Positions 10,498 through 63,331 of a stretch of 64,000 bases of DNA are shown here, one piece after another. The DNA is from a virus. Position 1 is the first letter of the stretch. Every line of letters starts with the position of its first letter. Where the stretch lies: IMG/VR virus record IMGVR_UViG_3300045988_111022. One strand, written 5' to 3'. A program made the translations under genes and the position numbers. Below the pieces are notes generated by a model. That model saw only the letters and a list, made by a program, of their open reading frames with translations, made no database searches and was not told where the DNA came from.

Positions 10498-10671
10498 AGA
10501 CCCGCACATTCCGTTGGCGCTTGATGCAGGAACATCAAGCCGGAAAATACAGGTCTCCACCACACACAACCATATTGTAGCATATTCGGTTGGATTTTTC
10601 AACAGGTACGAAGCGGCGAGAAAGGACTATCCTTTCTGCCGTTTTTCTATGCAAAAATTAGGAGGTACAAC

Positions 10672-14654: not shown

Positions 14655-15599
14655 ATGGGAAGCGATATTCGCCATGTCCGCGGCGAGGCCCAGAAAGAGC
14701 TTGTGAAGAAGTTTGAAGTATTTACAAGCAAGGGGCGATCAAGGTGGCAGGTTTGGAGCGATTGGATTACGATAAGCGCCATCGCCGTGTCCAATGCGAC
14801 GGACAAGAACCACTTCGATGAACGAGAGCGGCAGTACATGACTATCGTGAAAAAGTACACGAAGCAGGAAACAGATACGTTCGCAGATATGCTTTCGCTT
14901 CTGGTTATGGCGCTGGAGGATGACCCGGAACAGGATTTCCTTGGCGAGTTGTATATGCGCTTGGGGCTTGGAAATGACCATGCAGGCCAATTCTTTACGC
15001 CCTACCACCTGTGCGAGTTTACGTCAGCAGTAACGACCCCTGCGGAAGAGTTTCAGCAGAAAATCGGAGACAGGGGATGGGTTGCAGTCTGTGATCCGAC
15101 CTGCGGCGCTGGGGCCTTGCTGGTGGCGTTCGCAAACAAATGCAGAAAGAAAGGCATCAATTATCAGACGGATGTGCTGTTTGTGGCGCAGGACATTGAC
15201 TACATCGTGGGTATGATGTGCTATCTGCAAATGAGTCTGCTTGGAATGCCGGGATACGTCGTCATCGGTGATACGCTTGCAAGCCCGTCTACGTCTTATG
15301 ACAAAAGAGGGCTGATTCCAGTTGACAAAGGGAACGTCTGGTACACGCCGCTGCTCAGGATCCCGGTTTGGCAGTATCGAATCTTTATGGCGCAGATGGA
15401 GCTGGTCACTCAGCCGATAAAGGAAGAGCGTGCTGCGGATGCGCCAAAATCCGAACCACAGAAAGCCCTTGAAGCCACAAAAAAGAGTAAGCAACCAAAA
15501 GATACGGAAAAGCCAAAAGCCGCTAAAATGCCGCCCAAAGAGCCGGAGCAGGAACCGATATTCTCTGAGGGTAAGGGCGGGCAGTTGAGCTTTTTCTGA
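14655..15599 (+). CDS. HsdM/N6-adenine-methylase-like protein with no visible catalytic (N/D)PP(F/Y/W) motif
   Basis: GQFFTP, DPTCGAGALL, VAQDID and GDTL motifs are present in order. The sequence then diverges into a K/P/E-rich tail. Confidence 0.7.
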   Translation: MGSDIRHVRGEAQKELVKKFEVFTSKGRSRWQVWSDWITISAIAVSNATDKNHFDERERQYMTIVKKYTKQETDTFADMLSLLVMALEDDPEQDFLGELYMRLGLGNDHAGQFFTPYHLCEFTSAVTTPAEEFQQKIGDRGWVAVCDPTCGAGALLVAFANKCRKKGINYQTDVLFVAQDIDYIVGMMCYLQMSLLGMPGYVVIGDTLASPSTSYDKRGLIPVDKGNVWYTPLLRIPVWQYRIFMAQMELVTQPIKEERAADAPKSEPQKALEATKKSKQPKDTEKPKAAKMPPKEPEQEPIFSEGKGGQLSFF

Positions 15600-19053: not shown

Positions 19054-19246
19054 CACCCGGAAGAATCACAACCCCAGCGGCGCGCCGGATCCTACACGGG
19101 TTCGGGCAGAGAGCAACATCCAGAGGGAAGAAGCTCGTGTGAGCGAGCTTGTTCACGTTCTGCGTTATGTGGCAGGTGCCGCCGGGTTTGAAATTGTGGA
19201 GCGAATTGTTCTCGTGGATAACCAGACGGGGAGGATTTATCGGTGA
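19046..19246 (+). CDS. Hypothetical protein (66 aa)
   Basis: AAAGGAGA RBS. ATG at 19046. Confidence 0.5.
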   Translation: MPDTRKNHNPSGAPDPTRVRAESNIQREEARVSELVHVLRYVAGAAGFEIVERIVLVDNQTGRIYR

Positions 19247-20229
19247 ACAGAACAAAGAATGAGTTGGCCGATTATGCTTGGAATCCGGTGACAGGGTGCC
19301 TGAAAGATTGTCGGTACTGCTATGCAAGGAAAAGCGCGATACGGTTTGCAAGCGATTGGCGCCGAAATTTGGCAGAGAGACCGAAAGTTCAGCAGGTGGG
19401 AGAAAAGCTCTTTGAGCTGGATACCCCGTGGGAAACGAAAAACAAGCACTTCCTGAACAGTCCAACGGGATTTCTGCCCACGATGCACAAATACCGTTTC
19501 GACTGGCCGCAAAAGGTCAAAGTTGGCTCAAGCATTATGGTATGCACAGACGGCGATTTATTCGGGCCGTGGGTTCCTGAAGAATGGATTCTTCAGGTGT
19601 TTGCGGCGGCTGATGAAGCACCCCAGCACCAGTACATTTTTCTGACGCAGTATCCGGAACGCTATAAGCAGCTTGTGAATCACGAGAAGCTGCCCCAAAA
19701 CAAGAATTTCTGGTACGGTTCGACAGCGACGGTCAGAGAAAGCAGCGTATGGGCGAACGAACACTATAATACGTTCGTTGCGATAGAGCCGCTCCTTGGC
19801 CCGTTTGAGGGCGACGTGACAAAAGCGTTCCAGAAGTTGAAGTGGGTCATCATCGGCGCGGAAACAGGCCGAAATGCAGGAAAGGTCATTCCTAAAGCGG
19901 AGTGGATTAAAGACATTCTTGCGTCAGCGGATGCAACCGACACACCTGTTTTCATGCGGAGCAGCATGGAAAGCGTGGTGGGCGCTGAGAATATGCGGCG
20001 CGAGAAACCACAGCCGCTTCTTCAGAGAGTTCCCAGCGACGTGCAGAAAGAGCGTCTGTGGGAGTATTGCACGGTCTGCGGCAAGTACAGACCGATGAAA
20101 GAAATGTACGCGCTGCTCTTGCGCAGAAAACGTGGAGATAGCCCGGAGCGGGTGGCTTATATGTGCCCGGAATGCTATGAGCAGTTCAGCAGAGACAATT
20201 TTGAGAAAGGAAAAGACGATGAAGTTTGA
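19243..20229 (+). CDS. Phage Gp37/Gp68 family protein (DUF5131)
   Basis: YAWNPVTGCLKDCRYCYA N-terminal signature. C-terminal CxxC...CxxC ribbon. Confidence 0.8.
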   Translation: MNRTKNELADYAWNPVTGCLKDCRYCYARKSAIRFASDWRRNLAERPKVQQVGEKLFELDTPWETKNKHFLNSPTGFLPTMHKYRFDWPQKVKVGSSIMVCTDGDLFGPWVPEEWILQVFAAADEAPQHQYIFLTQYPERYKQLVNHEKLPQNKNFWYGSTATVRESSVWANEHYNTFVAIEPLLGPFEGDVTKAFQKLKWVIIGAETGRNAGKVIPKAEWIKDILASADATDTPVFMRSSMESVVGAENMRREKPQPLLQRVPSDVQKERLWEYCTVCGKYRPMKEMYALLLRRKRGDSPERVAYMCPECYEQFSRDNFEKGKDDEV

Positions 20230-21304
20230 ACGAAGCGAAATTGGAGCGCTGTTCTCCAAGCTCCGAACAGCAGTGCCGGAAGTTCGCGCAGTGGGCAACG
20301 ATAGCACGGGAATCCTGCTGAGTGGCCCGGATGCGTTCGCAACGAATTTGGAACTGAGCATTCGGGCAGAACTTTCCAGCCCGGTTCCGCAGGGCGTCGT
20401 TATTCCACCGCGTGGAGTGGATTTTATCAGCGGAGCAGTAGCCCCTGAAATCAACATCAACGTGACAAAGAGCGGGTTGGTCATAGAGTCCGGCACGGCG
20501 CGGGCACGGTTGAGCACGACGCCGGCAGAGAATTACCCCACATTTGATGGTCCGGGAAAGGATGCGAAGCGCTGCGTGGTGAGAGCGAACGATTTGAGCT
20601 GGGCCATCTCAAAGGTTCTATACGCTGTGTCCAAGGAGGATCGGCATCCGGCGCACAAAGGGCTGTGCTTTTCCCACAACGGCGACGATACTTTGGAAAT
20701 CTGCGCCCTGGATGGGTACAGAATGGCCATCAGCCGAATCGACTGCACCGCCGATGGCGATTTCAAGTTTGTGCTTCCGGCGGCAACGGCAAAGGCGATT
20801 GATACGCTGGGCCTTGATGGGAGCGTCAGTATTGAAAGAGACCGCAAAAAGGCCGTTTTCAGTGACAACAATTTTGAGGTAAAGTCTCGCCTGATCGCAG
20901 AACCGTTTCTGGATTATAGCAAAATTGCAGCCCAAAAGAGTGGGGGAACCAGAATCGTGCTTGACAGAAAAGAATTGCTGGGCGTTCTGGGACGCGTCAA
21001 ACTTGCTCGGTCTGCAGACGCAAAGGAAAAGAGCACCTTGGTGATGGATCTGGAACCCGGCGGCACAGGTAGAGCATCGATGCGTAGCACGATTGCGCAG
21101 ATGAATGAGGAGTTTTCCTTCAACGGAAAGCTGGATGAGCGCCTGCGAATCGGCTTTAATCTGGAGTTCCTGAGCGAGGCATTGAAGTCGATGGAAGGAG
21201 ACGAGGTCAGCGCATGGGTGGTCGGTCCTCTATCCCCCGTAAAGCTGATTGAGCCGCAGTATGAAGCGCTGGTGCTTCCTGTCAAGGTCAAGGAGGAAGC
21301 ATGA
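20219..21304 (+). CDS. dnaN: DNA polymerase III beta sliding clamp, phage-encoded
   Basis: 361 aa. ...AISKVLYAVSKEDRHPAHKGLCF......LEICALDGYRMA is the typical DnaN domain II pattern. Confidence 0.8.
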   Translation: MKFERSEIGALFSKLRTAVPEVRAVGNDSTGILLSGPDAFATNLELSIRAELSSPVPQGVVIPPRGVDFISGAVAPEININVTKSGLVIESGTARARLSTTPAENYPTFDGPGKDAKRCVVRANDLSWAISKVLYAVSKEDRHPAHKGLCFSHNGDDTLEICALDGYRMAISRIDCTADGDFKFVLPAATAKAIDTLGLDGSVSIERDRKKAVFSDNNFEVKSRLIAEPFLDYSKIAAQKSGGTRIVLDRKELLGVLGRVKLARSADAKEKSTLVMDLEPGGTGRASMRSTIAQMNEEFSFNGKLDERLRIGFNLEFLSEALKSMEGDEVSAWVVGPLSPVKLIEPQYEALVLPVKVKEEA

Positions 21305-23775: not shown

Positions 23776-24447
23776 ATGGATAAGCAAAAGATTAAGAGTG
23801 TTCCGAGGCTGACGACCGACAACCCGGTGGACAATTTTCAGACTGCCCTCAACTTTACTGACGTCAGCGAGGACGGCTGGGTATGGCTGCGGCAACCTGA
23901 AATGGCACTGACCGAGTATGCGCGGCAGCTCGTCAAGGGGCATGGCAGCAGCATCGATCTGGGCTGCAACGATATGGAGCTCTCCGAAAGTCTGACCGAT
24001 CACCTCTTCGACGACCCGAAGCAGAGCATTGATGGACTGATCGCAGAGCACTACACGATTTTGTGGGCCTACGCGACCCTGCGGGAAAAGCTCAAATGGT
24101 ACGAGGATGCAGGAATCCCGGTCATTCCTAATTACGGTCTGAGTACCATCCGGCGGGCGATCAATCGGTACGGCACCGCCCCTCAGCTCCAGATGGCGAT
24201 CAAGGAAATGTCAGAGCTCACGAAGGCAATCTGCAATCTCCAGCGGGCCGTAACCTTCAACTACCGCAACGGTGCGAAGATCAAGGTCGCCCACGAGAGC
24301 GTCAGGGAAGAAATCGCGGATGTCTATGTTATGCTGGCACAGCTTGTGGAAATCATCGGAAAGCCGGAAGAAGTACAGCAGATTGTGCTCGAAAAGCTCG
24401 ACCAGCTCAAAGGCTGTTTAGACGACGGGGAGGTACGCAGTGAGTAA
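23776..24447 (+). CDS. Protein with a C-terminal MazG-like NTP pyrophosphohydrolase domain
   Basis: ...QLQMAIKEMSELTKAI........ESVREEIADVYVMLAQL shows the EE..E.aD helical signature. Confidence 0.6.
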   Translation: MDKQKIKSVPRLTTDNPVDNFQTALNFTDVSEDGWVWLRQPEMALTEYARQLVKGHGSSIDLGCNDMELSESLTDHLFDDPKQSIDGLIAEHYTILWAYATLREKLKWYEDAGIPVIPNYGLSTIRRAINRYGTAPQLQMAIKEMSELTKAICNLQRAVTFNYRNGAKIKVAHESVREEIADVYVMLAQLVEIIGKPEEVQQIVLEKLDQLKGCLDDGEVRSE

Positions 24448-28563: not shown

Positions 28564-28592
28564 TTTACACGGCATGAAAAATGTGGTAGAAT
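28564..28592 (+). promoter_or_regulatory. Candidate promoter of the late operon
   Basis: TTTACA (28564-28569), 17-nt spacer with TGTGG, then TAGAAT (28587-28592). Confidence 0.5.
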
Positions 28593-28623
28593 AATACCGT
28601 AAAATTCTAATCATAGCGCATTG

Positions 28624-28657
28624 CCCGCCCGGTTTCGCCACCGAGCGGGTATTTTTA
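28624..28657 (+). terminator. Terminator-like hairpin between the late promoter and the first late gene
   Basis: CCCGCCCGG (28624-28632) pairs with CCGAGCGGG (28641-28649) with 1 mismatch, followed by TATTTTTA. Confidence 0.45.
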
Positions 28658-28736: not shown

Positions 28737-29324
28737 ATGAATCAGCAAGTAGTGTATCAGGATATTTCGCAGATCCATCCCTATGAGAACAATCCCCGGA
28801 ACAACGAAGCGGCCATTGAGCCTGTTGCGCAGAGCATCAAGCGGTTTGGCTTCCGTGTCCCCATCCTCATCGACGGAAAAGGAACTATCATCGCAGGACA
28901 CACCCGCTATGAGGCCGCAAAACGGCTTGGCATGGACAAAGTGCCGTGTATTCGGGTCGATGACCTGACGGATGAGCAAATCCGCGCATACCGCATCGCA
29001 GACAACAAGGTGGCCGAGGCTTCTTCGTGGAATGATGATGTTCTCCGCGCCGAAATGGACGCGCTGAAAGCCTTGGACGTTGATTTGACGGACACGGGTT
29101 TCAGCGAGGTGGAGCTTGATGGGCTTCTTCGGGAAGTGGAGGATGCCGACTTCGAGGAGTTCTTTACGGAACCCGTCCAACAGCCGCCCAAAGCGGCCGA
29201 TGCAGAGCAGAGCGCCGAGACCCAGCAATCTACCCAACCGGAATCTTCTCAGCTCGCTGTGCCGCAGCAGAGCGGCTCTAAGCTCATCCAATGTCCGCAT
29301 TGCGGAGAATGGTTTGAGACATGA
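28737..29324 (+). CDS. ParB-like N-terminal domain nuclease
   Basis: I.PYENNPRNN...I..VAQSIKRFGFRVPILID..G.IIAGHTRYEAAKRLG...VPC. Confidence 0.85.
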   Translation: MNQQVVYQDISQIHPYENNPRNNEAAIEPVAQSIKRFGFRVPILIDGKGTIIAGHTRYEAAKRLGMDKVPCIRVDDLTDEQIRAYRIADNKVAEASSWNDDVLRAEMDALKALDVDLTDTGFSEVELDGLLREVEDADFEEFFTEPVQQPPKAADAEQSAETQQSTQPESSQLAVPQQSGSKLIQCPHCGEWFET

Positions 29325-30070
29325 GGCTATGTCTGGCAGGTACATTCCCGGCCGAGAAGATTGTGAAAGAGTACCATCCAGAATATGTTCTGGAGAGCTT
29401 CTTTTACATCCGACCATGGCAAATCGAAGAAATTCCAAAATGGAAAATGTTCCTGCTCGACAGCGGGGCATTTACTTTTATGCACGGTATAGAAGCGTCT
29501 TCAAAGCCGGTAGATTGGGATGGATACCTGAGTCGGTACATCGACTTTATCAACCGCAACAACGTGCAGCATTTCTTCGAGCTGGATGTGGATTCCATCG
29601 TAGGTTATGACGCTGTAAAACGCATGAGAGCGCGCCTTGAAGCAGAGACAGGAAAGCAAAGCATTCCGGTCTGGCACCGCTCCCGTGGTCTGGACGAGTT
29701 CAAGCGCCTGTGTAGGGATTATCCCTATATCGGCATCGGCGGCTTCGCAATCAAGCACATACAGCCCAGCGAGTACGGCTATATCCGTCGTTTGGTGCAG
29801 TATGCAAATTCTTGCGGGGTGCGGGTGCATGGTCTGGGGTACACCAAAAAGGATGCAGTGAGTTTCGGCTTTTACAGCGTGGACAGCACGACATGGACCA
29901 CACAGGTCAATTTCGGAGGGCTGTCATACTTCAATGGCACAGAGATGGTCGTGGTCAGACCGCCCAAGGGGATGATCGGCGCAGACTATCGCCGCCGCCG
30001 GGAGTACTCGTTGAGAGAGTGGATAAAGTACCAGAAATACCTTGATACGAAAGGAAAATGGCGTGGATAA
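29321..30070 (+). CDS. dpdA: DpdA-like DNA-guanine transglycosylase (TGT-fold, compact)
   Basis: Motifs colinear with TGT: FLLDSGAF, ELDVD, IPVWH, IGIGGFA, VHGLGYT, SVDSTTW. Confidence 0.6.
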   Translation: MRLCLAGTFPAEKIVKEYHPEYVLESFFYIRPWQIEEIPKWKMFLLDSGAFTFMHGIEASSKPVDWDGYLSRYIDFINRNNVQHFFELDVDSIVGYDAVKRMRARLEAETGKQSIPVWHRSRGLDEFKRLCRDYPYIGIGGFAIKHIQPSEYGYIRRLVQYANSCGVRVHGLGYTKKDAVSFGFYSVDSTTWTTQVNFGGLSYFNGTEMVVVRPPKGMIGADYRRRREYSLREWIKYQKYLDTKGKWRG

Positions 30071-30905
30071 AGAAATCGTCTACCGCGTCGAGGATGGCAT
30101 GGACAGGGAAAAGATTCTCTGCACCACCTACCAGATGCGGAATTTTTATATGCAGTTCAGAGACGGATTTTTCACCAATCTGGACGTTATGAACTATATC
30201 CAGCACCTCGCCGCCGCCCATATGGCGAAAAAAGGGATGAACGTGCTGGATGTGTGCTGTGGGCGCTCTCTGATGCTCCCGCTGCTGCGCTACTACGCAA
30301 AGGACATTGCATCCTACACTGGAGTGGACATCAGCAAGGCGAACATCAAGGAAGCGATGCGCGGCGCAACTGCAAAGAACCTCGAACCCAAGGATTTGGC
30401 CTCCTACTACCCGTTCCGGGTGGGCTGGAAGCTGGGCAACGTCGCAGAGATGTCTAAGGTCATCCCGGCGGGCTTTGCCGACTTCGTGATTTACACCTCC
30501 GCCATCGAGCATATGCACCCTACGGACGGCGCAAAAAGCCTTGTAGAATGCTACAAGGTGATGAAGCCGGGTGCAAAGATGTTTCTCTCCTGTCCGAACA
30601 CCCCAGGCAATGGGTATCAAACCCAGTACCGCGCTCATGTCTATGAGTGGGGCTACGATGAACTGAAAGCCAAGCTGACCGAAATCGGATTCAGTATTGT
30701 GCAGGAGGTCGGTTTGGTCACCAGCGTCCGCGAAATGGACGAGTTCTATTCCAAACAGCCGTCGGCGCTCAAGGATTTCTATGAACGCATGAAGTCCTAT
30801 GTCCCGTCTGCATTTCTCACAGCGTTTATGGCTATCCCATTCCCGCGTGAGGCGAAAGAGCTGTTGTTCATCGTCCAGAAGCCGAAAGGAGAGGAAAATG
30901 CCTAA
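30042..30905 (+). CDS. Class I SAM-dependent methyltransferase; start uncertain (30042, 30063 or 30099)
   Basis: VLDVCCGRSLM (motif I), YTGVDIS, FVIYTSAIEHM, LKPGAKMFLSCPN. Confidence 0.8.
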   Translation: MIRKENGVDKEIVYRVEDGMDREKILCTTYQMRNFYMQFRDGFFTNLDVMNYIQHLAAAHMAKKGMNVLDVCCGRSLMLPLLRYYAKDIASYTGVDISKANIKEAMRGATAKNLEPKDLASYYPFRVGWKLGNVAEMSKVIPAGFADFVIYTSAIEHMHPTDGAKSLVECYKVMKPGAKMFLSCPNTPGNGYQTQYRAHVYEWGYDELKAKLTEIGFSIVQEVGLVTSVREMDEFYSKQPSALKDFYERMKSYVPSAFLTAFMAIPFPREAKELLFIVQKPKGEENA

Positions 30906-31209
30906 GTTCAAGAATGAGTATGGGGTGTCGAAAATCAAGTACACCCAGAAGTGCAGATGCTTTTGCCCTATCGGAAAGGCAGACTACACGAACAACTTCA
31001 CCGTGACTATCACTCCGAAGAAGTGGATCCCGGACTACTGCGAAATCGACAAGTTCATTCGTGAGCAGCTGGATGGAAAGAGCCTTGTCATTGAGGACGC
31101 CGCCTGCAAGCTGAAGCAGTGGCTCACGGGGGAGATTCATCCCTACTGGGTCGAGGTCGAGTCGGATGTGACCGACGGTGTGCACGGCCATGTAACGGTA
31201 ACAGTATAA
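30898..31209 (+). CDS. QueF-like T-fold protein (103 aa)
   Basis: CFCPIGKADYTNNFTVTITP...VIEDAACKL....PYWVEVE aligns with QueF CPKTGQPDFATIYISYIP...FHEDC...PRYIEV. The ESKSLK motif is not conserved. Confidence 0.55.
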   Translation: MPKFKNEYGVSKIKYTQKCRCFCPIGKADYTNNFTVTITPKKWIPDYCEIDKFIREQLDGKSLVIEDAACKLKQWLTGEIHPYWVEVESDVTDGVHGHVTVTV

Positions 31210-31223
31210 GGGAGGGGCGCAAG

Positions 31224-31685
31224 ATGAAAAATACTCGTGCTCTTTGCCAGACCGCCGTTGTTGCAGCATTGTATGTGGCGCTGACCACCTTGAACCCCCT
31301 GTCGTGGGGTGCAATCCAATTCCGGGTTGCAAATATGCTCTGTGCACTCCCGTTCAAGGACAAGAAATATGCCCCGGCGGTTCTGCTGGGAATCGCAATC
31401 GCAAACGCAACCAGCCCGTTTGGGCCTGTCGATGTGGCCTTTGGTCTGATGGCTGAGGGCGTGGCGTATCTCCTTGTTGTTTGGGGGCCGTGGAAAAAGC
31501 TGGGGATTTTGTGGAAAGCTGTTATCCTCTCTTTGTCCGTGGCTCTGTTCATCGGGGTGGAGCTGTACGCAATGGTGGGAGCGCCGTTCCTGCTGACGGC
31601 CGCAGGGCTGTTCGTTGGCACTTTCTTGGCCGTGGAACTCGGCAACATGGTGATTTCTAAAACCGCTCTTGCAAGAATCGTGTAA
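31224..31685 (+). CDS. queT: QueT-family queuosine-precursor transporter
   Basis: Polytopic membrane protein with GAIQFRVANMLCALPF, typical of QueT. Confidence 0.7.
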   Translation: MKNTRALCQTAVVAALYVALTTLNPLSWGAIQFRVANMLCALPFKDKKYAPAVLLGIAIANATSPFGPVDVAFGLMAEGVAYLLVVWGPWKKLGILWKAVILSLSVALFIGVELYAMVGAPFLLTAAGLFVGTFLAVELGNMVISKTALARIV

Positions 31686-31799
31686 GAGGGGGCGCGGCGC
31701 TGGCTCTGCAAAGGGTCGGCGCTTTTTCTTTGGAACAACATAACCGTCAGGCCAAATACCGGGCGAGCAGAACAAAGAGGGATAGTGGTGGCGATGTAG

Positions 31800-32654
31800 A
31801 TGGAAACGCGAGACAAGGCGTTCACCCTTTATAAGAAAGGGATGGGATGCACCGAAATCTCAAAGAAGCTGGGCGTATCGCTGAACACGGTCAAGTCTTG
31901 GAAAAAGCGGTATTGGGATGCACAAAAGGGTGCACCCAAGAAGCGCACCCCGTCGCACCCAAAGGGTGCATCTTCAAAATGCACCCAGCAAGACCCGGCG
32001 GCTCAGCCTGAGAAGAAACCGAATCTCGGCGGCGCGCCGAAAGGGAACGTCAATGCTGTTGGCAATCATGGCGGGGCACCGCCGGGAAATCAGAACGCGC
32101 TAAAGCACGGCGGTTGGTCTGCTGTGATGTTTGGCGCGTTTTCCGAAGAAAACCAGAAAGCTATACAGGACTGCACGAAAGACGTGGATGCAGAGGACCT
32201 GCTGATACAGGAGCTTCAACTGCTGACCGCCCGCGAAGCATTTCTGCTCCAGCGCATTACGGCGGCTCAGGAAAAGAAGCAGCACATCCAGTCGGTGCAT
32301 ACATCAAAATCCAGCAGGTCTTTTACCCGGCTGGATGAGGATAAAGAAAAAGAGGCCCACGACAAGGAGGTTTACATTGAGCGGATAGATGCAAAGGTGC
32401 AAAGGGAAGAGCGCCTTCCTGGCACCAGCGTTGAGACATCAACCACCACCGAATCAAGCTACCTTATCGTGGAGCGCTTAGAGCGGCTGTTGACCGATGT
32501 ACAGCGCCAGAAGTCTAAGGTGATACAGCAGCTTGCCGACCTGCGCAGAATGAGCAACAGCGGCAAGAATGAGCTGGTAGACGACTGGGTAGCGGCAGTC
32601 GAGGCGGCGGACGCAGAAGTGGAGGGTGAAGACGATGGCGCTGAGACAACGTGA
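31800..32654 (+). CDS. terS: Terminase small subunit
   Basis: N-terminal HTH (GMGCTEISKKLGVSLNTVKSWKKRY) and repeated GGAPKGN.NA/GGAPPGNQNALKHG motifs. Confidence 0.85.
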   Translation: METRDKAFTLYKKGMGCTEISKKLGVSLNTVKSWKKRYWDAQKGAPKKRTPSHPKGASSKCTQQDPAAQPEKKPNLGGAPKGNVNAVGNHGGAPPGNQNALKHGGWSAVMFGAFSEENQKAIQDCTKDVDAEDLLIQELQLLTAREAFLLQRITAAQEKKQHIQSVHTSKSSRSFTRLDEDKEKEAHDKEVYIERIDAKVQREERLPGTSVETSTTTESSYLIVERLERLLTDVQRQKSKVIQQLADLRRMSNSGKNELVDDWVAAVEAADAEVEGEDDGAETT

Positions 32655-34032
32655 AGTCTTCGCCAAACGGCTCCCGCTGTACCGCAAAGACCCCTGCTTG
32701 TTCTTCAAAGAGGTCACACGCTTCAAGCCGGATAGATGGCAAAAAGAAGCGGCCACGGCCATTGCACAGCACCGCAAAGTTTCCATCCGTTCAGGACAGG
32801 GCGTTGGAAAAACAGCTTTTGAAGCAAACTTGGTGCTCTGGTTTTTGGCTTGCTTCCCGTATCCCCGCGTCGTGTGCACGGCACCGACCCGCCAGCAGTT
32901 GAACGATGTGCTCTGGGCTGAGATTGCCAAGTGGCAGGAGCGCAGTCCTGTCTTGCAGGCCATGCTTGTATGGACAAAGACCCGCGTCTACATGAGGGGG
33001 CACGAGAAGCGCTGGTTCGCCGTGGCCCGCACGGCCACGAAGCCGGAAAATATGCAGGGCTTCCATGAAGACAATATGCTTTTCGTGGTGGACGAGGCAT
33101 CTGGCGTTGCCGACCCCATCATGGAGGCTATACAGGGTACGCTTTCCGGAGACAACAACCGCTTACTGATGTGCGGAAACCCAACGCAGAACACTGGCAC
33201 ATTCCACGATTCGCACACCGTGGATGCCCAGTCCTACTACTGCATGAAGGTGTCCAGCAGGGACAGCCCCCGCACGAATAAGCAAAATATCGCTGACTTG
33301 GAGCGAAAGTTCGGCAAGAACAGCAATGTGGTCCGCGTCCGTGTTGACGGCGAGTTCCCGGAAAATGAGGACGACGTCTTTATTCCGATGGCGCTTGCCA
33401 CAAAAGCGGTCAATACTGAACCGCTTGAGCACAGCACTCCGGCCAGAATCTCCATTGGGTGCGACGTGGCCCGCTTTGGCAACGACGACACCGCCATTGC
33501 GAAGAACATTGACGGGGACATTAAAAAGCTGGTCACGCGCCACGGCCAAGACCTGTACGCGACAGCCGATGACATTATCGAAATGTACAAGGCCCTGCGC
33601 ACAGCGTATCCGCAGTATCGCGGTCTGATCTATGCGATTATTGACGATACGGGTGTGGGCGGCGGAGTGACGGATATTCTCAACAGGGAGAAGATTCGGC
33701 AGAAGCTGAACAAACTCATGGTTGTTCCTGTCAATTTCTCGTCTGCTGTTCCTGACAAGGAAGCCGCCGGGAGATATGCCGATATTTCAACATGGATGTG
33801 GGCTGTCCTGCGCGACATGGCGGCGTCTGGTCTCCTGCATTTGCCGGATGACGCGACCTTGATAGGTCAGCTCACGACCCGCAAGTACATCTTCAGCGGC
33901 GCGCCCTCCAAGCTGAAACTTGAAAGCAAAGAGGCTCTAAAGAAGCGCGGCCTGACCAGCCCGGACCGGGCTGATGCAGTTGCGCTGGCATTATACGAGG
34001 GCGGAATTTTTGATGTCCACAGCCTGATTTAA
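32635..34032 (+). CDS. terL: Terminase large subunit
   Basis: Walker A-like SGQGVGKT, Walker B MLFVVDEASGV, C-terminal nuclease-like region. Confidence 0.9.
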   Translation: MALRQREVFAKRLPLYRKDPCLFFKEVTRFKPDRWQKEAATAIAQHRKVSIRSGQGVGKTAFEANLVLWFLACFPYPRVVCTAPTRQQLNDVLWAEIAKWQERSPVLQAMLVWTKTRVYMRGHEKRWFAVARTATKPENMQGFHEDNMLFVVDEASGVADPIMEAIQGTLSGDNNRLLMCGNPTQNTGTFHDSHTVDAQSYYCMKVSSRDSPRTNKQNIADLERKFGKNSNVVRVRVDGEFPENEDDVFIPMALATKAVNTEPLEHSTPARISIGCDVARFGNDDTAIAKNIDGDIKKLVTRHGQDLYATADDIIEMYKALRTAYPQYRGLIYAIIDDTGVGGGVTDILNREKIRQKLNKLMVVPVNFSSAVPDKEAAGRYADISTWMWAVLRDMAASGLLHLPDDATLIGQLTTRKYIFSGAPSKLKLESKEALKKRGLTSPDRADAVALALYEGGIFDVHSLI

Positions 34033-34053: not shown

Positions 34054-36402
34054 GTGAAAAAAGTTATTCCCGGAAAAATTAAAACACAGCTGCGCCTTGA
34101 CGGTTACTATAATGTGCTGAACAAGTACGGCACCCAGCACGACAGCACGGAGTACTACCAGTGGGCGTCTGGCTCTGCGGTAAGCGATACGGAGCTGGCT
34201 GATCTCTATGCAGGAAACGGGTTGTTCTCAACCATTATTGATGCCCCGGCGGACGACGCAACCAAGAACGGCATCGACCTCGGCATCAAGGACAAAGACT
34301 TGCAGAAACAGCTCGACAACCACTTGCAGACCATCCGATACCAGAGCAAATTCGCCAAGGCTTTGCGCTGGGCGCGGCTCTTTGGCGGTGCTGCTGTGGT
34401 GATGCTGGTTGACGACGGGCGGCTCCTGCAGGATCCTTTGAACTGGCGTGACGTGCACGGCGTCGAAGAGCTGTTGGTATATGGCCGCAACGAAATGTAT
34501 CCTCTTTGGGTCAATGGGTATGAGAACAACCCGGACGATGAGGATTACCGCCGGGGAGGCACTGGCATCCCGGAGTACTACCAAGTCAACAGCGTGTACG
34601 GCAACTATGTTGTGCATTCGTCCAGATGCCTTGTTTTCCATAACTCGGACATCCCGGAAAGCTCCACTATGGCTAATCTCTACCGCACATGGGGCATCCC
34701 GGAGTATCTGCGCATTCGTGAAGAGCTGAGAAATGCCAGCATAGGCCCCGGCTATTCTATCCGCCTGCTGGAGCGGCTGTCGATGGTGACCTACAAGATG
34801 AAGAATCTTGCTGGTGTGCTTTCCACGGCAGACGGCGAGGATACGGTTCTTCAGCGTATGGAAATGCTTGACCTTGCCCGTAATCTGCTGAACATGGTCA
34901 TTATTGATGCCGACGGCGAGGATGTGGGCGTTCAATCCCTGTCTGTTGCTGGCGTTAAGGACATTCTGGACAATGCCTGTGCGATGTTGTCTGCTGTATC
35001 TCATATCCCACAGACGCGGCTTTTTGGGCGTTCCCCGGCGGGCGAGAATGCCACTGGAGAGAGTGACCTTGAGAATTACAAGGAATTCGTCGGAGGTCTC
35101 CAAAACGGTGACCTCCGCGATAACACCCGTACCCTCGTTGAGCTGATTCTTCGCGGCATGGTTTGGAACAGGGAAGTCGAGGAGATACCTGAGTACACCG
35201 TGACCTACAAGAGCGCGTGGAGCCCGTCTGACGATGAAAAGGCAGCACAAGACCAAGCTGCCGCAGTGGCACAGCTCACCAGAGCGCAGACCGCTGGCAC
35301 ATACGTCACAAATGGAATTGTCGAAGCTGAAGAAGTTCGCCGTGCGATGGTTCGGGACGAACAGTTTGACCCGGAGAATATTCTCACGGAAGCGGACATC
35401 CACCAAGACTGGGGTCTTGGCGGAGCCGATACCCAGCAGGAAGCCGCTGATGGTCAGCAACAGAACGTCGCGGACGCAAGCGGTCTTGTTACCGATGAGG
35501 GAGACTGCGGCTATGTGGCGGGCTTTGTCGTGCAGGATGGCAAGATCCTCTGCGGGCGTCGCTCCGATGGTCAAGGCTGGTGTGGCCCCGGTGGGCATAT
35601 CGAGCCGAAAGAAACGCCGGGGGTGGCCTTCCGCCGGGAAGCCAAAGAAGAGTTTGGAATTGACGTTGGGAATATTACCTATCTTGGTAACTGCAAAGGA
35701 AAACCGGATGAAATCCTCCCTGTGCAGATATACCGCGTCAACGACTATGCAGGTATCCCGGTGTGCGATCAGGAAGAGATGTTCACCGCCACATGGTTCA
35801 CCCCGGAACAGATTCTTGCCCAAGAGGTCCCCGGCGGGCTGGTGTTCGACCCATTCCGCAGGAGCGTGGAAGAATACCTCGACCAGCTGGGCCTGACGCT
35901 GGATGACTTCGACCCCAATAAGCACAAACGCGATGAGGACGGAAAGTTCTCCAGCATGGGGAACACAACATCAAAAGATGAATCGGGCAAGGAAAATTCG
36001 TCAAAAGACTTGAATGATTCCCAAAGTCATGCTAAAATAAATTCTAACGCAGTTTCGGCAAAAGGCGCAAACGCTTTCAAAGTGAAAGGGTTTCCCAACA
36101 AGCAGAAGCTGAACAACCACTGGCAGAACGGAAGAACCCACGCCGCTGAGTACGCTCCCGATGGCATTACAACAAAGGAGCAGTACGAAAAGCGGGCGGT
36201 TCAACTTCTGGAAAGCCCCTGTGGGAACGGTATCAAGGGCTATAAGACAAAAGATGGCCTTATATGCCGATACGATACGAAGAAAAATGACTTTGCGAAA
36301 GGTTCCCCGGAGAAAGGCGTAAGAACGATGTTCAAGCCCGATGATGGGGAAGAGTATTATAGACGCCGACTTGAGGCCGAGGGAATAGAGAACGATGAAT
36401 GA
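34054..36402 (+). CDS. Portal protein fused to a NUDIX hydrolase domain and a C-terminal nuclease-like domain (782 aa)
   Basis: Portal (DUF1073-like) spans about aa 1-470. Nudix box GGHIEPKETPGVAFRREAKEEFGI at nt 35587-35658. C-terminal ~150 aa with NHWQNGRTHAAEY.... Confidence 0.85.
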   Translation: MKKVIPGKIKTQLRLDGYYNVLNKYGTQHDSTEYYQWASGSAVSDTELADLYAGNGLFSTIIDAPADDATKNGIDLGIKDKDLQKQLDNHLQTIRYQSKFAKALRWARLFGGAAVVMLVDDGRLLQDPLNWRDVHGVEELLVYGRNEMYPLWVNGYENNPDDEDYRRGGTGIPEYYQVNSVYGNYVVHSSRCLVFHNSDIPESSTMANLYRTWGIPEYLRIREELRNASIGPGYSIRLLERLSMVTYKMKNLAGVLSTADGEDTVLQRMEMLDLARNLLNMVIIDADGEDVGVQSLSVAGVKDILDNACAMLSAVSHIPQTRLFGRSPAGENATGESDLENYKEFVGGLQNGDLRDNTRTLVELILRGMVWNREVEEIPEYTVTYKSAWSPSDDEKAAQDQAAAVAQLTRAQTAGTYVTNGIVEAEEVRRAMVRDEQFDPENILTEADIHQDWGLGGADTQQEAADGQQQNVADASGLVTDEGDCGYVAGFVVQDGKILCGRRSDGQGWCGPGGHIEPKETPGVAFRREAKEEFGIDVGNITYLGNCKGKPDEILPVQIYRVNDYAGIPVCDQEEMFTATWFTPEQILAQEVPGGLVFDPFRRSVEEYLDQLGLTLDDFDPNKHKRDEDGKFSSMGNTTSKDESGKENSSKDLNDSQSHAKINSNAVSAKGANAFKVKGFPNKQKLNNHWQNGRTHAAEYAPDGITTKEQYEKRAVQLLESPCGNGIKGYKTKDGLICRYDTKKNDFAKGSPEKGVRTMFKPDDGEEYYRRRLEAEGIENDE

Positions 36403-36658: not shown

Positions 36659-36734
36659 GCAGTCATAGCTCAGTTGGTAGAGCGCCTGCCCTCCAAGCAG
36701 GATGCCGCGGGTTCGAGCCCCGTTGACTGCTCCA
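36659..36734 (+). tRNA. tRNA-Gly(UCC)-like with a non-canonical anticodon loop (C at position 33)
   Basis: Cloverleaf GCAGTCA/TGACTGC acceptor, GCTC/GAGC D stem, CCTGC-CCTCCAA-GCAGG anticodon arm, GCGGG-TTCGAGC-CCCGT T arm, U73, encoded CCA. Confidence 0.75.
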
Positions 36735-36737
36735 TAT

Positions 36738-36810
36738 CGAGGGTTGGCCAAGTTGGATAAGGCATGGGCCTTTGACTCCCAGACCGCCGGTTCGAGTCCG
36801 GTACCCTCGA
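36738..36810 (+). tRNA. tRNA-Gln(UUG)
   Basis: CGAGGGT/ACCCTCG acceptor, GCCAAGTTGGATAAGGC D arm, loop CTTTGAC, GCCGG-TTCGAGT-CCGGT T arm. No encoded CCA. C31-U39 mismatch. Confidence 0.8.
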
Positions 36811-36815
36811 CTTAT

Positions 36816-36892
36816 GCTGGTGTAGCTCAGTTGGACAGAGCAGTTGATTTGTAATCTTCAGGTCGTGGGTTCAAATCCCATCCCCAGCTCCA
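36816..36892 (+). tRNA. tRNA-Thr(UGU)-like with a weakened anticodon stem
   Basis: GCTGGTG...CCCCAGC acceptor (1 mismatch), loop TTTGTAA, anticodon stem GTTGA/TCTTC (2 internal mismatches), GTGGG-TTCAAAT-CCCAT T arm, encoded CCA. Confidence 0.65.
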
Positions 36893-55492: not shown

Positions 55493-55505
55493 GGATTATG
55501 GAAAC

Positions 55506-57736: not shown

Positions 57737-57811
57737 ATGGTTATAATCTAACAAAAATGATACGAACAGATGTTTTGTTGATATAATCGGCAATGGAAAG
57801 GGGAACGAGCA

Positions 57812-63229: not shown

Positions 63230-63331
63230 CTTTTTATGCAATAAAGAATCACAAAATTCGTGATAATCTAACAATCCCCTGATTTTTCCAGAAGAAAAGA
63301 ATATCTTTTATTGTAAGGAGCGAGCGAGTAT

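What the first reader, a model, noticed from the sequence alone, without database searches (positions are those of the whole stretch)
28737..31685. Salvage-type 7-deazaguanine DNA-modification module at the head of the late operon
Five consecutive genes lie just before terS: a ParB-like nuclease, a compact TGT-fold protein, a class I SAM methyltransferase, a 103-aa QueF-like T-fold protein and a QueT-type transporter. The TGT-fold protein has motifs colinear with tRNA-guanine transglycosylase and DpdA (DSGAF, ELDVD, IGIGG, HGLG, VDSTTW). The QueF-like protein has CP-x-G-x-x-D-Y but lacks the ESKSLK substrate motif. No queC, queD, queE or folE genes are present. This implies the phage imports preQ0/preQ1 through its own QueT, inserts it into DNA with DpdA, and may tailor it further (reduction or amidination by the QueF-like protein, methylation by the methyltransferase). 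Phage DpdA systems and methylated dPreQ1 derivatives are established knowledge. The combination of transporter-dependent salvage, a minimal QueF-like protein and a methyltransferase in a gut Firmicute prophage is unusual. It predicts a specific hypermodified base that would protect against restriction.
Basis: partly seen in the sequence, partly recalled or inferred. Interest (0 to 1): 0.72.

Follow-up and report, generated by a model that had tools for sequence, protein, structure and literature searches.

The report
Salvage-fed 7-deazaguanine DNA-modification cassette, Faecalibacterium prophage
A very common prophage of the gut bacterium Faecalibacterium prausnitzii carries a five-gene cassette that most likely imports a queuosine-precursor base and swaps it for guanine in phage DNA, and three of its proteins (a ParB-like partner, a small QueF-L-like enzyme and a methyltransferase) belong to uncharacterised families, so the final base is not yet predictable.

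Summary
Five tightly packed + strand genes (28737-31685) lie just before terS. They encode a ParB_N protein, a compact DpdA, a class I SAM methyltransferase, a 103-aa T-fold protein and QueT. The DpdA model has pLDDT 91, its top 16 PDB fold matches are all tRNA-guanine transglycosylases, and it is homologous to phage 9g DpdA. The T-fold protein is closest to archaeal QueF-L (Foldseek TM 0.66-0.76; hhalign 91%). I found no folE, queD, queE, queC or canonical queF in the window.

In 70 loci of this DpdA clade, a transporter (YhhQ/QPTR or QueT) and a de novo FolE/QueD/QueE/QueC set are near-exclusive alternatives (Fisher p=4e-7). This supports the salvage reading.

- A small ParB_N protein sits directly upstream of DpdA in 51 of 63 loci. 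Bacterial DpdA needs the ParB-fold ATPase DpdB, so this protein is probably a DpdA partner, not merely a nuclease.
- The methyltransferase is not DpdM. It follows DpdA in three different precursor-supply contexts.
- The ParB–DpdA–transporter core is common. Only the T-fold and methyltransferase add-ons are unusual.

The chemical product is unknown. I rate this a new variant of a known kind.

The parts
28564..28592 (+). promoter-like site (TTTACA-17-TAGAAT, TG-extended) ahead of the cassette
   Evidence: Consensus scan, 10 of 12 matches. Sequence read. Pattern match only; the number of sites found is not above the shuffle expectation.
28634..28657 (+). G+C-rich hairpin followed by a T-run inside the ~140-nt leader before parB. 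It may be an attenuator or antitermination target.
   Evidence: Terminator-like site; sequence. No Rfam family matches at E<=1. Its function is inferred.
28737..29324 (+). Compact ParB_N protein (195 aa) with a GHTRYEA (GxxRxxA) motif and a C-terminal CxxC. Proposed DNA-loading or NTPase partner of DpdA, analogous to DpdB.
   Evidence: PF02195 E=3e-8; phrog_620 8e-63; phrog_498 2e-48. Matches the ParB domain of a PADLOC MTase_II model at E=3e-31. A homologue lies directly upstream of DpdA in 51 of 63 loci. In the 55-row alignment of window plus adjacent homologues: G54 in 54, R57 in 52, A60 in 48; CxxC tail in 44 of 54 homologues. Its stop overlaps the dpdA start (ATGA).
29321..30070 (+). Compact DpdA-type DNA guanine transglycosylase (249 aa)
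   Evidence: phrog_887 3e-58. tblastn to phage 9g, BRET, 7-11 and mycobacteriophage DpdA. AF2 pLDDT 91.3. The top 16 Foldseek PDB hits are all TGT, best E=3e-7. D47, D89, D91, H119, H170 and D188 are invariant in 48 homologues.
30063..30905 (+). Class I SAM-dependent methyltransferase (280 aa, GTG start) linked to DpdA. Not a DpdM.
   Evidence: Methyltransf_23/11/25; weak mRNA cap guanine-N7 MTase hit; PADLOC mad2 E=7e-12. It is the most conserved cassette gene: 75% identity where DpdA is 44%. It lies next to DpdA with QueT, with YhhQ and with QueD/QueE/FolE.
30898..31209 (+). 103-aa QueF-L-like T-fold protein with invariant Cys23, Glu66 and His96. Proposed nitrile (preQ0)-processing tailoring enzyme.
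   Evidence: AF2 gives a beta-beta-alpha-alpha-beta-beta topology, pLDDT 66. Foldseek top hit is QueF-L 5jyx/5k0p, TM 0.66-0.76. Family profile against 5jyx_A E=5.6e-4; hhalign 91.3%, E=1e-6. 9 of 69 members weakly hit PF14489. The family has about 209 50%-identity clusters, all 100-110 aa. It lies between DpdA and YhhQ in L093, L101 and L147.
31224..31685 (+). QueT-type S component of an ECF transporter (153 aa), for uptake of a queuosine-precursor base
   Evidence: PF06177 E=2e-27, 96.5 bits; phrog_27044 2e-67. In related cassettes the same position is taken by the unrelated YhhQ/Vut_1 transporter.
31696..31733 (+). Strong intrinsic-terminator-like hairpin (12-bp stem, T-run) 11 nt after the queT stop and before terS
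   Evidence: sequence.
31800..34032 (+). terS (31800-32654) and terL (about 32635-34032). Context only: they mark the start of the packaging and structural genes.
   Evidence: Terminase_5/HTH_23 hits and the large-terminase-sized gene. The cassette precedes the terminase genes in many unrelated loci.

Best explanation
The cassette is a late-expressed, salvage-fed 7-deazaguanine DNA-modification module of a temperate F. prausnitzii phage.

Proposed steps and how each is supported:
1. QueT, using the host ECF energising module, imports a queuosine-precursor base. This is inferred from the family assignment and from the transporter replacing the biosynthesis genes in related loci. The substrate (preQ0 or preQ1) is unknown.
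2. The compact DpdA exchanges guanine in double-stranded phage DNA for that base. Fold and homology are shown; the activity is inferred.
3. The small ParB_N protein encoded immediately upstream and translationally coupled helps DpdA. It probably loads DpdA on DNA or drives it along DNA in a nucleotide-dependent way, as the ParB-fold ATPase DpdB does for bacterial DpdA. This is inferred from the conserved gene pairing and the motif.
4. Two accessory enzymes tailor the base. The QueF-L-like T-fold protein would attack the nitrile of preQ0 with its invariant Cys to form a thioimide, which is then resolved without NADPH to an amidine (archaeosine-type) or amide/acid product. Because the family is acidic, it may act on the free base rather than on DNA.
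5. The class I methyltransferase adds a methyl group to the deazaguanine or to a site dependent on it.

The modified DNA is then packaged and resists restriction. The last point follows from established knowledge of DpdA phages.
For: Gene identities.

DpdA:
- TGT fold.
- Invariant Asp residues in the DSG-, ELD- and VDS-type motifs. These correspond to the three invariant Asp residues of the TGT and DpdA families described in PMC10164549.

No de novo genes in the window.

Comparative genomics on 70 one-per-species genome loci of this DpdA clade:
- Of 53 loci with at least 2.5 kb downstream, 32 have a transporter without a full pathway, 14 have at least three of FolE/QueD/QueE/QueC without a transporter, and 2 have both. 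Fisher p=4.5e-7.
- Two unrelated transporter families, QueT and YhhQ/Vut_1, occupy the same slot.

ParB_N:
- Directly upstream of DpdA in 51 of 63 loci, across DpdA identities of 35-100% and several phyla.
- GHxRxxA motif conserved.
- DpdB is a ParB-fold ATPase required for bacterial DpdA (PMC10164549).

T-fold protein:
- QueF-L is the best structural and profile match, and Cys21 and Glu63 align.
- It lies next to DpdA in independent contexts: L093, L101, L147, L068 and L071.

Methyltransferase: adjacent to DpdA in three supply contexts.

Host and expression:
- F. prausnitzii carries the preQ1-III riboswitch that controls queT (PMC11625349).
- The cassette sits between a promoter-like site with a leader hairpin and a terminator, immediately before terS.
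Against: - No biochemical or nucleoside data exist for this phage. The inserted base and the final product are unknown.
- Validated phage DpdAs worked in E. coli without a ParB partner (PMC6884629, PMC10516641), so the ParB role is not required by precedent. ParB_N genes are also common near terminase genes and as domains of DNA methyltransferases.
- In the T-fold family, the residue aligned with the QueF-L general acid/base Asp28 is Tyr30. An acidic residue occurs 1-3 positions earlier in only 46 of 69 members.
- The T-fold structural model has only moderate confidence (pLDDT 66), and the Cys loop is below 50.
- QueT controlled by preQ1-III riboswitches is described as preQ1-specific (PMC11625349). 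That would leave a nitrile-dependent enzyme without a substrate unless the phage QueT has a broader specificity.
- The methyltransferase occurs without the T-fold protein and in a locus with no QueC or QueF within 20 kb. Its substrate cannot simply be dPreQ1 or the T-fold product.
- The 70 loci are not phylogenetically independent, so the Fisher p-value overstates the evidence.
Confidence: 0.68

Rival explanations
1. QueT imports preQ0 or preQ1. The T-fold protein acts as a minimal QueF that reduces preQ0 to preQ1. DpdA inserts preQ1. The methyltransferase then makes methylated dPreQ1, acting as a functional analogue of DpdM.
For: - mdPreQ1 and preQ1-inserting DpdA enzymes exist (PMC10516641).
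- The host's QueT system senses preQ1.
- The T-fold protein is related to QueF.
- ParB–DpdA–MTase–QueT cassettes occur without the T-fold protein, which fits direct preQ1 import.
Against: - The NADPH-binding QueF motif is absent, and no member reaches the PF14489 threshold.
- The methyltransferase is class I, not DUF3109/DpdM.
- The same methyltransferase family sits in a FolE/QueD/QueE locus with no QueC or QueF within 20 kb, where preQ1 is not the expected product.
Confidence: 0.12
2. Only DpdA and the transporter form a functional unit. The ParB_N protein and the methyltransferase are an ordinary split ParB–methyltransferase, or a packaging-associated function typical of the region before terS. 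The 103-aa protein has an unrelated role.
For: - The ParB domain is most similar to ParB domains fused to DNA methyltransferases: phrog_498 2e-48 and PADLOC MTase_II 3e-31.
- The methyltransferase hits the mad2 defence methyltransferase model.
- Validated phage DpdAs act alone in E. coli (PMC6884629).
- The region before terS is a common site for accessory genes.
Against: - ParB_N accompanies DpdA in 81% of loci whether or not a methyltransferase is present.
- The methyltransferase is next to a DpdA in every context examined, including one without ParB, without a transporter and away from terS.
- The T-fold family lies between DpdA and YhhQ in three unrelated loci.
- The genes are translationally coupled.
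Confidence: 0.13
3. The cassette is an auxiliary metabolic module for tRNA, not DNA. The phage boosts queuosine-precursor uptake and tRNA guanine exchange to tune translation of late genes.
For: - The fold is that of tRNA-guanine transglycosylase.
- QueT and YhhQ normally serve tRNA queuosine salvage (PMC11130926).
- The host is probably a precursor salvager.
Against: - The protein gets no Pfam TGT hit and is only 249 aa, against 360-576 aa for the TGT chains it matches. From reading the sequence, it has no CxCxxC zinc motif.
- Its sequence relatives are phage DpdAs with proven DNA activity (PMC6884629).
- Its constant partner is a DNA-binding ParB_N protein.
- The three phage tRNAs (Gly, Gln, Thr) are not queuosine substrates.
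Confidence: 0.05

Closest known systems
Phage DpdA systems (DpdA1 of Enterobacteria phage 9g and CAjan; DpdA-only phages such as Salmonella phage 7-11 and mycobacteriophages)
   Same: - Homologous transglycosylase: phrog_887, 27-37% identity.
- TGT-type barrel with invariant Asp residues.
- Post-replicative guanine exchange is expected.
- Hutinet et al. 2019 already noted phages with DpdA but no synthesis genes, and phages with YhhQ homologues.
   Different: - This protein is a compact 249-aa form that neither Pfam nor NCBIfam detects.
- It is systematically paired with a ParB_N gene.
- It is supplied by QueT or YhhQ in place of FolE/QueD/QueE/QueC, in a clear either-or pattern. [quoted passage not shown]
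- It carries two accessory families not described in the phage deazaguanine papers I read.
Bacterial Dpd modification module (DpdA-DpdB-DpdC, Salmonella Montevideo)
   Same: - A transglycosylase is encoded next to a ParB-superfamily protein with a nucleotide-binding motif.
- A third enzyme then converts the nitrile of inserted preQ0 (DpdC makes dADG).
   Different: - DpdB has a DGQQR motif and a large helical C-terminal domain. The phage protein is 195 aa, has a classical GxxRxxA motif and a CxxC tail, and hits no PADLOC Dpd model.
- The phage tailoring enzyme is a T-fold protein.
- No restriction genes (dpdD-K) are present.
QueF-L, the archaeal archaeosine synthase (Pyrobaculum calidifontis, PDB 5jyx/5k0p)
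   Same: - Unimodular T-fold of about 100 aa.
- Best structural match, TM up to 0.76.
- hhalign 91%.
- Thioimide Cys in a CP-x motif and the base-anchoring Glu are both conserved.
- No NADPH motif.
   Different: - About 20% identity.
- The general acid/base Asp28 aligns with Tyr30, and His62 aligns with Ile.
- The phage family has its own invariant His96 and a near-invariant Asp46-Tyr47.
- The family is acidic (median pI 4.9), whereas QueF-L binds tRNA.
- It occurs in phages. Cui et al. 2023 reported that no phage QueF sequence aligned with QueF-L.
DpdM, the preQ1 or dPreQ1 methyltransferase of Cellulophaga phage phiSM and Vibrio phage VH7D
   Same: It is a methyltransferase gene embedded in a phage deazaguanine cluster, so it could play an analogous tailoring role.
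   Different: - DpdM is a DUF3109/YkgJ-like metal-binding protein. The protein here is a Rossmann-fold class I SAM methyltransferase with weak similarity to cap guanine-N7 methyltransferases.
- It also occurs where no preQ1 route is evident.
Fusobacterium phage phiFN37 (OR492271.1)
   Same: This cultured phage has the gene order ParB-like, DpdA, small protein, 'queosine precursor transporter'. Its DpdA is 38% identical.
   Different: - The tailoring slot holds a 144-aa protein that, by my reading of its sequence, resembles the DUF6884 cluster representative scanned. It was not itself scanned.
- The transporter is annotated as a queuosine-precursor transporter, and I did not scan its family.
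- The cassette is not next to the terminase genes.

Membership tests
DpdA (DNA 7-deazaguanine transglycosylase, TGT superfamily) | TGT-type TIM-barrel fold | tested here: met
   AF2 model pLDDT 91.3. The first 16 Foldseek PDB hits are archaeal, bacterial and eukaryotic TGTs, E=3e-7 to 1e-4, TM 0.50-0.61 normalised to the query.
DpdA (DNA 7-deazaguanine transglycosylase, TGT superfamily) | Three invariant active-site Asp residues: general acid/base, base recognition and nucleophile (Asp95, Asp130 and Asp256 in S. Montevideo DpdA) | tested here: inconclusive
   D47 (LDSGAF, with Phe at +4 as in Asp95/Phe99), D89 and D188 are invariant in 48 homologues. I mapped them onto the bacterial residues by motif position, not by a structural superposition.
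DpdA (DNA 7-deazaguanine transglycosylase, TGT superfamily) | Sequence homology to an experimentally validated phage DpdA | tested here: met
   tblastn to Enterobacteria phage 9g DpdA at 28.5% identity over 76% of the query, E=5e-6, and to Salmonella phage 7-11. phrog_887 E=3e-58.
DpdA (DNA 7-deazaguanine transglycosylase, TGT superfamily) | Inserts a 7-deazaguanine into DNA | not testable with these tools
   Needs nucleoside LC-MS/MS or heterologous expression.
QueF (NADPH-dependent preQ0 reductase) | NADPH-binding QueF motif E(S/L)K(S/A)hK(L/Y)(Y/F/W) | tested here: not met
   The corresponding helix reads YCEIDKFI. The motif lysines are absent across the 69-member family.
QueF (NADPH-dependent preQ0 reductase) | Match to Pfam PF14489 at its gathering threshold | tested here: not met
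   The window protein has no hit. 9 of 69 family members give only weak hits, best E=0.0013.
QueF-L (archaeosine synthase, T-fold amidinotransferase) | Unimodular T-fold of about 100 residues | tested here: met
   Topology is beta-beta-alpha-alpha-beta-beta, 103 aa. The top Foldseek PDB hits are 5jyx and 5k0p, TM 0.61-0.76. The model confidence is only moderate (pLDDT 66).
QueF-L (archaeosine synthase, T-fold amidinotransferase) | Conserved Cys that forms the thioimide with preQ0 (Cys21) | tested here: met
   Cys23 is invariant in 69 of 69 members and aligns with Cys21 in both hmmsearch and hhalign.
QueF-L (archaeosine synthase, T-fold amidinotransferase) | Conserved Asp general acid/base (Asp28) | tested here: not met
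   Asp28 aligns with the near-invariant Tyr30. An Asp or Glu is present at positions 27-29 in only 46 of 69 members. The window protein itself has Asp29. The loop alignment is uncertain.
QueF-L (archaeosine synthase, T-fold amidinotransferase) | Converts nucleic-acid-bound preQ0 to archaeosine using ammonium | not testable with these tools
   Indirect evidence argues against a nucleic-acid substrate: the family has a median pI of 4.9 and only 4 of 69 members are basic.
QueT (ECF S component for queuosine precursors) | Match to PF06177 above the gathering score | tested here: met
   96.5 bits against a cutoff of 33.7, covering positions 1-136 of the 141-position profile.
QueT (ECF S component for queuosine precursors) | Transports preQ1, preQ0 or queuine with an ECF module | not testable with these tools
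   No ECF A or T component genes appeared in the Pfam scans of the window, so the host module would be needed. Substrate specificity varies within the family (PMC11130926).
DpdM (preQ1 or dPreQ1 methyltransferase) | DUF3109/YkgJ-like metal-binding fold | tested here: not met
   The protein is Methyltransf_23/11/25 class I. DpdM is defined as DUF3109 in PMC10516641.
DpdB (ParB-fold ATPase partner of bacterial DpdA) | ParB/Srx-superfamily N-terminal domain with a nucleotide-binding motif | tested here: met
   PF02195. The G-H-x-R-x-x-A motif is conserved in the DpdA-adjacent homologues, with the Gly present in 54 of 55 aligned sequences.
DpdB (ParB-fold ATPase partner of bacterial DpdA) | DGQQR motif and the DpdB or SspE-like C-terminal helical domain; sequence membership | tested here: not met
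   The protein is 195 aa with a CxxC tail. It hits no PADLOC Dpd model; the best PADLOC hit is the ParB domain of a type II methyltransferase model.
DpdB (ParB-fold ATPase partner of bacterial DpdA) | Encoded next to dpdA and required for base exchange | tested here: inconclusive
   The adjacency is met: 51 of 63 loci, with start and stop overlap in the window. The requirement cannot be tested here.

The most novel reading that the evidence does not exclude
This highly prevalent F. prausnitzii prophage, and relatives carrying the same accessory genes, put a 7-deazaguanine derivative into their DNA that has not yet been described. An example would be a methylated amidine or amide derivative made from salvaged preQ0. 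The pathway would use three uncharacterised protein families that work with DpdA:
- a minimal ParB_N plus zinc-ribbon 'loader', acting as the phage counterpart of DpdB;
- a NADPH-independent QueF-L-like T-fold enzyme, the first of its kind in phages;
- a highly conserved class I methyltransferase that moves between DpdA systems with different precursor supplies.
Probability: 0.3. Interest if true: 0.8.

Novelty: new variant of a known kind. Interest (0 to 1): 0.6.

Why it matters
- **Prevalence.** F. prausnitzii is among the most abundant human gut bacteria. This exact 103-aa protein is indexed in about 20,000 blocks of the assembly collection. If this prophage's DNA is hypermodified, that would matter for phage-host dynamics, for restriction evasion in the gut and possibly for sequencing of gut viromes.
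- **Dependence on shared precursors.** The either-or pattern of transporter versus de novo genes implies that many phages depend on queuosine precursors. In the gut these behave as micronutrients shared within the community.
- **New enzyme candidates.** The ParB_N–DpdA pairing suggests that the DpdB requirement seen in bacteria has a phage counterpart. The T-fold and methyltransferase families are concrete candidates for new deazaguanine chemistry, and both can be tested with established E. coli assays.

Tried and rejected
- tblastn of the 103-aa protein against 50,697 phage records found no match at E<=1.
- phmmer of the 103-aa protein and of DpdA against PDB sequences gave only noise. The DpdA profile against PDB sequences also gave noise. 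Fold comparison was needed.
- The broad T-fold alignment A2 was too diverse for the search for related loci. The narrow alignment A1 returned only the same phage lineage plus one distant locus.
- I tested whether the small gene after DpdA in Salmonella phage 7-11, which carries unexplained dADG, belongs to the T-fold family. It does not.
- A weak T-fold hit in L089 turned out to be QueD.
- PADLOC gave no DpdA, DpdB or DpdC hits for any cassette protein.
- No preQ1 or other riboswitch was found: Rfam at gathering threshold on the whole window, and at E<=1 on the leader.
- The QueE-profile hit at 55407-56816 is a 469-aa generic radical SAM protein, not QueE.
- The closest cultured phage at DNA level is only Faecalibacterium phage Roos, 71% identical over terL. 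No annotated close relative exists.
- The paper on the QueF-L crystal structure (PMC5167649) is not held in the library.

Full report
**1. What is there**

The region 28737-31685 holds five + strand genes with almost no intergenic space. The same gene calls appear in independent assemblies.

| Gene | Coordinates | Size | Key evidence |
|---|---|---|---|
| ParB_N protein | 28737-29324 | 195 aa | PF02195 E=3e-8; phrog_620 E=8e-63 |
| DpdA-like | 29321-30070 | 249 aa | no Pfam/NCBIfam hit; phrog_887 E=3e-58 |
| Class I SAM methyltransferase | 30063-30905 (GTG start) | 280 aa | Methyltransf_23/11/25 |
| T-fold protein | 30898-31209 | 103 aa | no Pfam, NCBIfam or PHROG hit |
| QueT | 31224-31685 | 153 aa | PF06177, 96.5 bits vs cutoff 33.7 |

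- The DpdA-like protein matches, by tblastn, the DpdA of phages 9g, BRET, 7-11 and several mycobacteriophages at 27-37% identity.
- Start and stop codons of the first four genes overlap by 4-8 nt.
- A promoter-like site (28564-28592) and a hairpin with a T-run lie in the ~140-nt leader. A 12-bp-stem terminator-like hairpin follows the queT stop.
- terS starts at 31800, followed by terL, a portal–NUDIX fusion, a Mu F-like protein and the capsid genes.
- The element is a prophage with its integrase at 196-1308. The host is Faecalibacterium prausnitzii: a 100% identical DpdA lies in chromosome NZ_CP186691.1.
- The exact 103-aa protein is indexed in about 20,000 blocks of the public assembly collection, some on contigs longer than 1 Mb. 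The prophage is therefore very common.

**2. DpdA**

With 48 homologues as the alignment, the AlphaFold model reaches pLDDT 91.3. Its first 16 Foldseek matches in the PDB are all tRNA-guanine transglycosylases, starting with archaeosine TGT 1j2b at E=3e-7. Other TIM barrels come only after them.

D47 (in LDSGAF), D89 and D91 (in ELDVD), H119, H170 and D188 (in VDST) are invariant in the 48 sequences. The TGT and DpdA families share three invariant Asp residues: a general acid/base, a base-recognition residue and a nucleophile (PMC10164549). I assigned the window's residues to these roles by motif position only.

The family is large: 3,417 90%-identity clusters at E<=1e-5. None of the 120 listed has a precomputed Pfam hit. 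This explains why such cassettes go unannotated.

**3. The 103-aa protein**

- The family comprises about 209 50%-identity clusters, nearly all 100-110 aa.
- Cys23, Glu66 and His96 are invariant. Gly26, Tyr30, Asp46 and Tyr47 are nearly so.
- The model (pLDDT 66) has the beta-beta-alpha-alpha-beta-beta topology of the tunnel fold.
- Its best PDB matches are the archaeosine synthase QueF-L (5jyx, 5k0p; TM 0.61-0.76, about 20% identity, both about 100 aa). GTP cyclohydrolase I and dihydroneopterin aldolase follow.
- The family profile finds 5jyx_A at E=5.6e-4. hhalign gives 91.3% probability, E=1e-6.
- Both alignments pair Cys23 with the thioimide Cys21, and Glu66 with Glu63 of the His-Glu pair.
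- Nine of 69 members hit Pfam QueF weakly.
- The NADPH-binding QueF motif is absent.

The general acid/base Asp28 of QueF-L aligns with Tyr30, and only 46 of 69 members have an acidic residue 1-3 positions earlier. The protein is thus a separate family within the QueF/QueF-L group, not a member of either.

The family is acidic (median pI 4.9; 4 of 69 members basic). This fits a free-base substrate better than a nucleic-acid one.

Cui et al. 2023 reported that no phage QueF sequence aligned with QueF-L. A BFVD entry from a gut metagenome, 'Archeaosine synthase [Siphoviridae sp. ctJ7x27]', is a weak structural match. At least one pipeline has therefore already assigned an archaeosine-synthase label to a similar small phage protein.

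**4. Is it salvage?**

I found no folE, queD, queE or queC in the 64 kb.
- Local HMMs built from 20-24 phage homologues each, searched against all six-frame ORFs of the window, gave one hit: a 469-aa generic radical SAM protein at 55407-56816.
- Pfam scans of the larger ORFs of the early region and of the right end show recombination, replication and unknown proteins.
- Precomputed Pfam hits cover roughly 20.9-41.2 kb.
- queF was checked only through those Pfam scans and the T-fold profile, so its absence at about 41-50 kb is less firmly established.

The stronger argument is comparative. I collected 70 loci, one per species genome, carrying this DpdA clade at 35-100% identity. They come from Firmicutes, Bacteroidota, Veillonella, Synergistota, Saccharibacteria, Acidobacteriota and others. 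I clustered the downstream genes and named the clusters with Pfam.

Among the 53 loci with at least 2.5 kb downstream:

| Downstream content | Loci |
|---|---|
| Transporter only (YhhQ/Vut_1 or QueT) | 29 |
| Transporter plus one or two pathway genes | 3 |
| At least three of FolE/QueD/QueE/QueC, no transporter | 14 |
| Both | 2 |
| Neither a transporter nor a full pathway | 5 |

Fisher's exact test gives p=4.5e-7, but the loci are not independent. Two unrelated transporter families fill the same slot. This either-or pattern is what a precursor-supply function predicts.

Hutinet et al. [quoted passage not shown] Within this compact-DpdA clade the correlation is clear.

The host fits as well. 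The preQ1-III riboswitch that controls queT was characterised in F. prausnitzii, and the genus ranks among the poorest micronutrient producers of the gut.

**5. The ParB_N gene**

In 51 of the 63 loci with at least 500 bp upstream, a homologous ORF ends at or just before the DpdA start. This holds whatever follows DpdA.
- These proteins are short, mostly about 160-240 aa.
- They keep the NPR box and the G-H-x-R-x-x-A motif. In the 55-sequence alignment, Gly is present in 54, Arg in 52 and Ala in 48.
- 44 of 54 adjacent homologues end in a CxxC element.

In the bacterial Dpd system, DpdA cannot insert preQ0 without DpdB. [quoted passage not shown] The phage protein is not a DpdB by sequence, but it occupies the same genomic and probably the same functional position.

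Its closest sequence relatives are ParB domains fused to DNA methyltransferases. This suggests a general role for the domain in bringing DNA-modifying enzymes to DNA.

The two main phage deazaguanine papers do not contain the word ParB. The requirement for ParB is an inference, because validated phage DpdAs worked alone in E. coli.

**6. The methyltransferase**

It is not DpdM, which is a DUF3109/YkgJ-type protein. It is a Rossmann-fold class I enzyme. Its only specific similarities are weak ones to cap guanine-N7 methyltransferases and to the mad2 defence methyltransferase.

It is the most conserved gene of the cassette: 75% identity in L151, where DpdA is 44% and ParB 38% identical. It lies beside a DpdA in every context examined:
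- with QueT, with or without the T-fold protein;
- with YhhQ;
- in a 58-kb lytic-type gut phage, next to a distant 301-aa DpdA and QueD-QueE-FolE, with no QueC or QueF within 20 kb.

It therefore belongs to deazaguanine systems. Its substrate must be common to different supply routes, so N-methylation of dPreQ1 is only one possibility.

**7. Position of the T-fold gene**

- In the F. prausnitzii lineage it sits between the methyltransferase gene and queT.
- In L093, L101 and L147 (DpdA 42-46% identical) the order is DpdA–T-fold–YhhQ–terminase.
- In L068 a phrog_887 DpdA lies 560 bp upstream of it.
- In L069 it is near a Vut_1 transporter and a MazG gene.
- In other loci the slot between DpdA and the transporter holds QueC, a DUF6884 protein, the methyltransferase or nothing. 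The corresponding 144-aa protein of Fusobacterium phage phiFN37 looks DUF6884-like by eye.

This is consistent with a 'tailoring slot'.

The T-fold gene is the least conserved of the cassette. It is 72% identical where its neighbours are 88-96% identical, and it shows mosaic alleles.

**8. Most likely mechanism**

In late infection, QueT on the host ECF module raises uptake of a precursor base. DpdA, assisted by the ParB_N protein, exchanges guanines in replicated phage DNA just before packaging. The T-fold enzyme forms a Cys23 thioimide with the nitrile of preQ0 and releases an amidine or amide-type product without NADPH. The methyltransferase adds a methyl group.

- Shown: gene identities, folds, conserved residues and genomic associations.
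- Inferred: every activity, the substrate, the order of the steps and protection from restriction.
- One tension remains. QueT controlled by preQ1-III riboswitches is described as preQ1-specific, yet the T-fold chemistry requires a nitrile.

**9. Novelty**

Phage DpdA systems, DpdA-only phages and phage YhhQ homologues are known. A ParB–DpdA–transporter cassette is already annotated in a cultured phage.

New here:
- the strict alternation of salvage and synthesis within one DpdA clade;
- the conserved ParB_N partner;
- a phage QueF-L-like family;
- a DpdA-linked class I methyltransferase;
- all of these together in an extremely prevalent gut prophage.

I found no paper in the held library that describes these points. 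I rate the finding a new variant of a known kind, with interest 0.6.

Noticed in passing
window 34054-36402 (+): The portal protein is fused to a C-terminal NUDIX hydrolase domain (PF06381 + PF00293, 782 aa). One related locus (L003) has a shorter 646-aa version.
   Followed up: no
window 36659-36892 (+): Three phage tRNA genes (Gly-tcc, Gln-ttg, Thr-tgt) lie between the portal gene and the Mu F-like gene. None is a queuosine (GUN anticodon) tRNA.
   Followed up: yes
window 28564-28657 and 31696-31733 (+): The leader before parB has a promoter-like site followed by a hairpin with a T-run. A strong terminator-like hairpin sits between queT and terS. The cassette may be its own transcription unit or may be read by antitermination. 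No Rfam family matches the leader.
   Followed up: partly
window 30898-31209; alignment A1; loci L030-L064: The T-fold gene is the fastest-diverging gene of the cassette: about 70% identity where the neighbouring genes are 88-96% identical. It shows mosaic alleles with N- and C-terminal halves of two types recombined. This could reflect diversifying selection or allele swapping.
   Followed up: partly
L155 (ena:ERZ27287373:k141_429630), 9078-13157: A 58-kb lytic-type gut phage has the order PolA, distant 301-aa DpdA, the same methyltransferase family (68% identity), a 185-aa unknown protein, QueD, QueE, FolE. No QueC or QueF lies within 20 kb. This suggests a CDG-derived modification that also involves this methyltransferase.
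   Followed up: partly
L092, L097, L128 (QueC between DpdA and YhhQ); L103, L104, L118, L119, L123 (DUF6884 directly after DpdA); L149 6748-7182 (DUF6884-like by eye): The slot between DpdA and the transporter holds alternative small genes. QueC together with YhhQ hints at salvage of CDG or at an ADG-forming QueC variant. DUF6884 (YaaA-like) is another uncharacterised companion of DpdA; the 144-aa protein of phage phiFN37 at the same position resembles it but was not scanned.
   Followed up: partly
window 55407-56816 and 59726-61003 (+): A 469-aa radical SAM protein has weak similarity to prokaryotic viperins in its N-terminal domain only. A 425-aa protein has weak reverse-transcriptase hits. 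Both lie among genes with no Pfam match at the right end of the prophage. I found no template/variable-type repeat that would indicate a diversity-generating retroelement.
   Followed up: partly
window 53468-54580 (+): This gene has a 12-nt periodic repeat (TGC-ACG-GGG-TCC type, at least 9 copies per family). It encodes a cysteine-rich C-x-G-x repeat protein with no Pfam hit.
   Followed up: no
window 14655-15599, 19243-20229, 20132-21304, 23776-24447 (+): The early region also encodes an N6 DNA methylase-like protein (PF02384), a DUF5131 protein, a DNA polymerase III beta clamp and a MazG-like NTP pyrophosphohydrolase (phrog_2245). The phage may therefore carry a second, conventional DNA methylation and a nucleotide-pool function.
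   Followed up: no
window 57697-57754 and 63217-63274 (+): A 58-nt direct repeat (72% identity) ends in GTTATAATCTAACAA at both copies, 5.5 kb apart. It could be duplicated promoter or terminator regions flanking a cargo segment.
   Followed up: no
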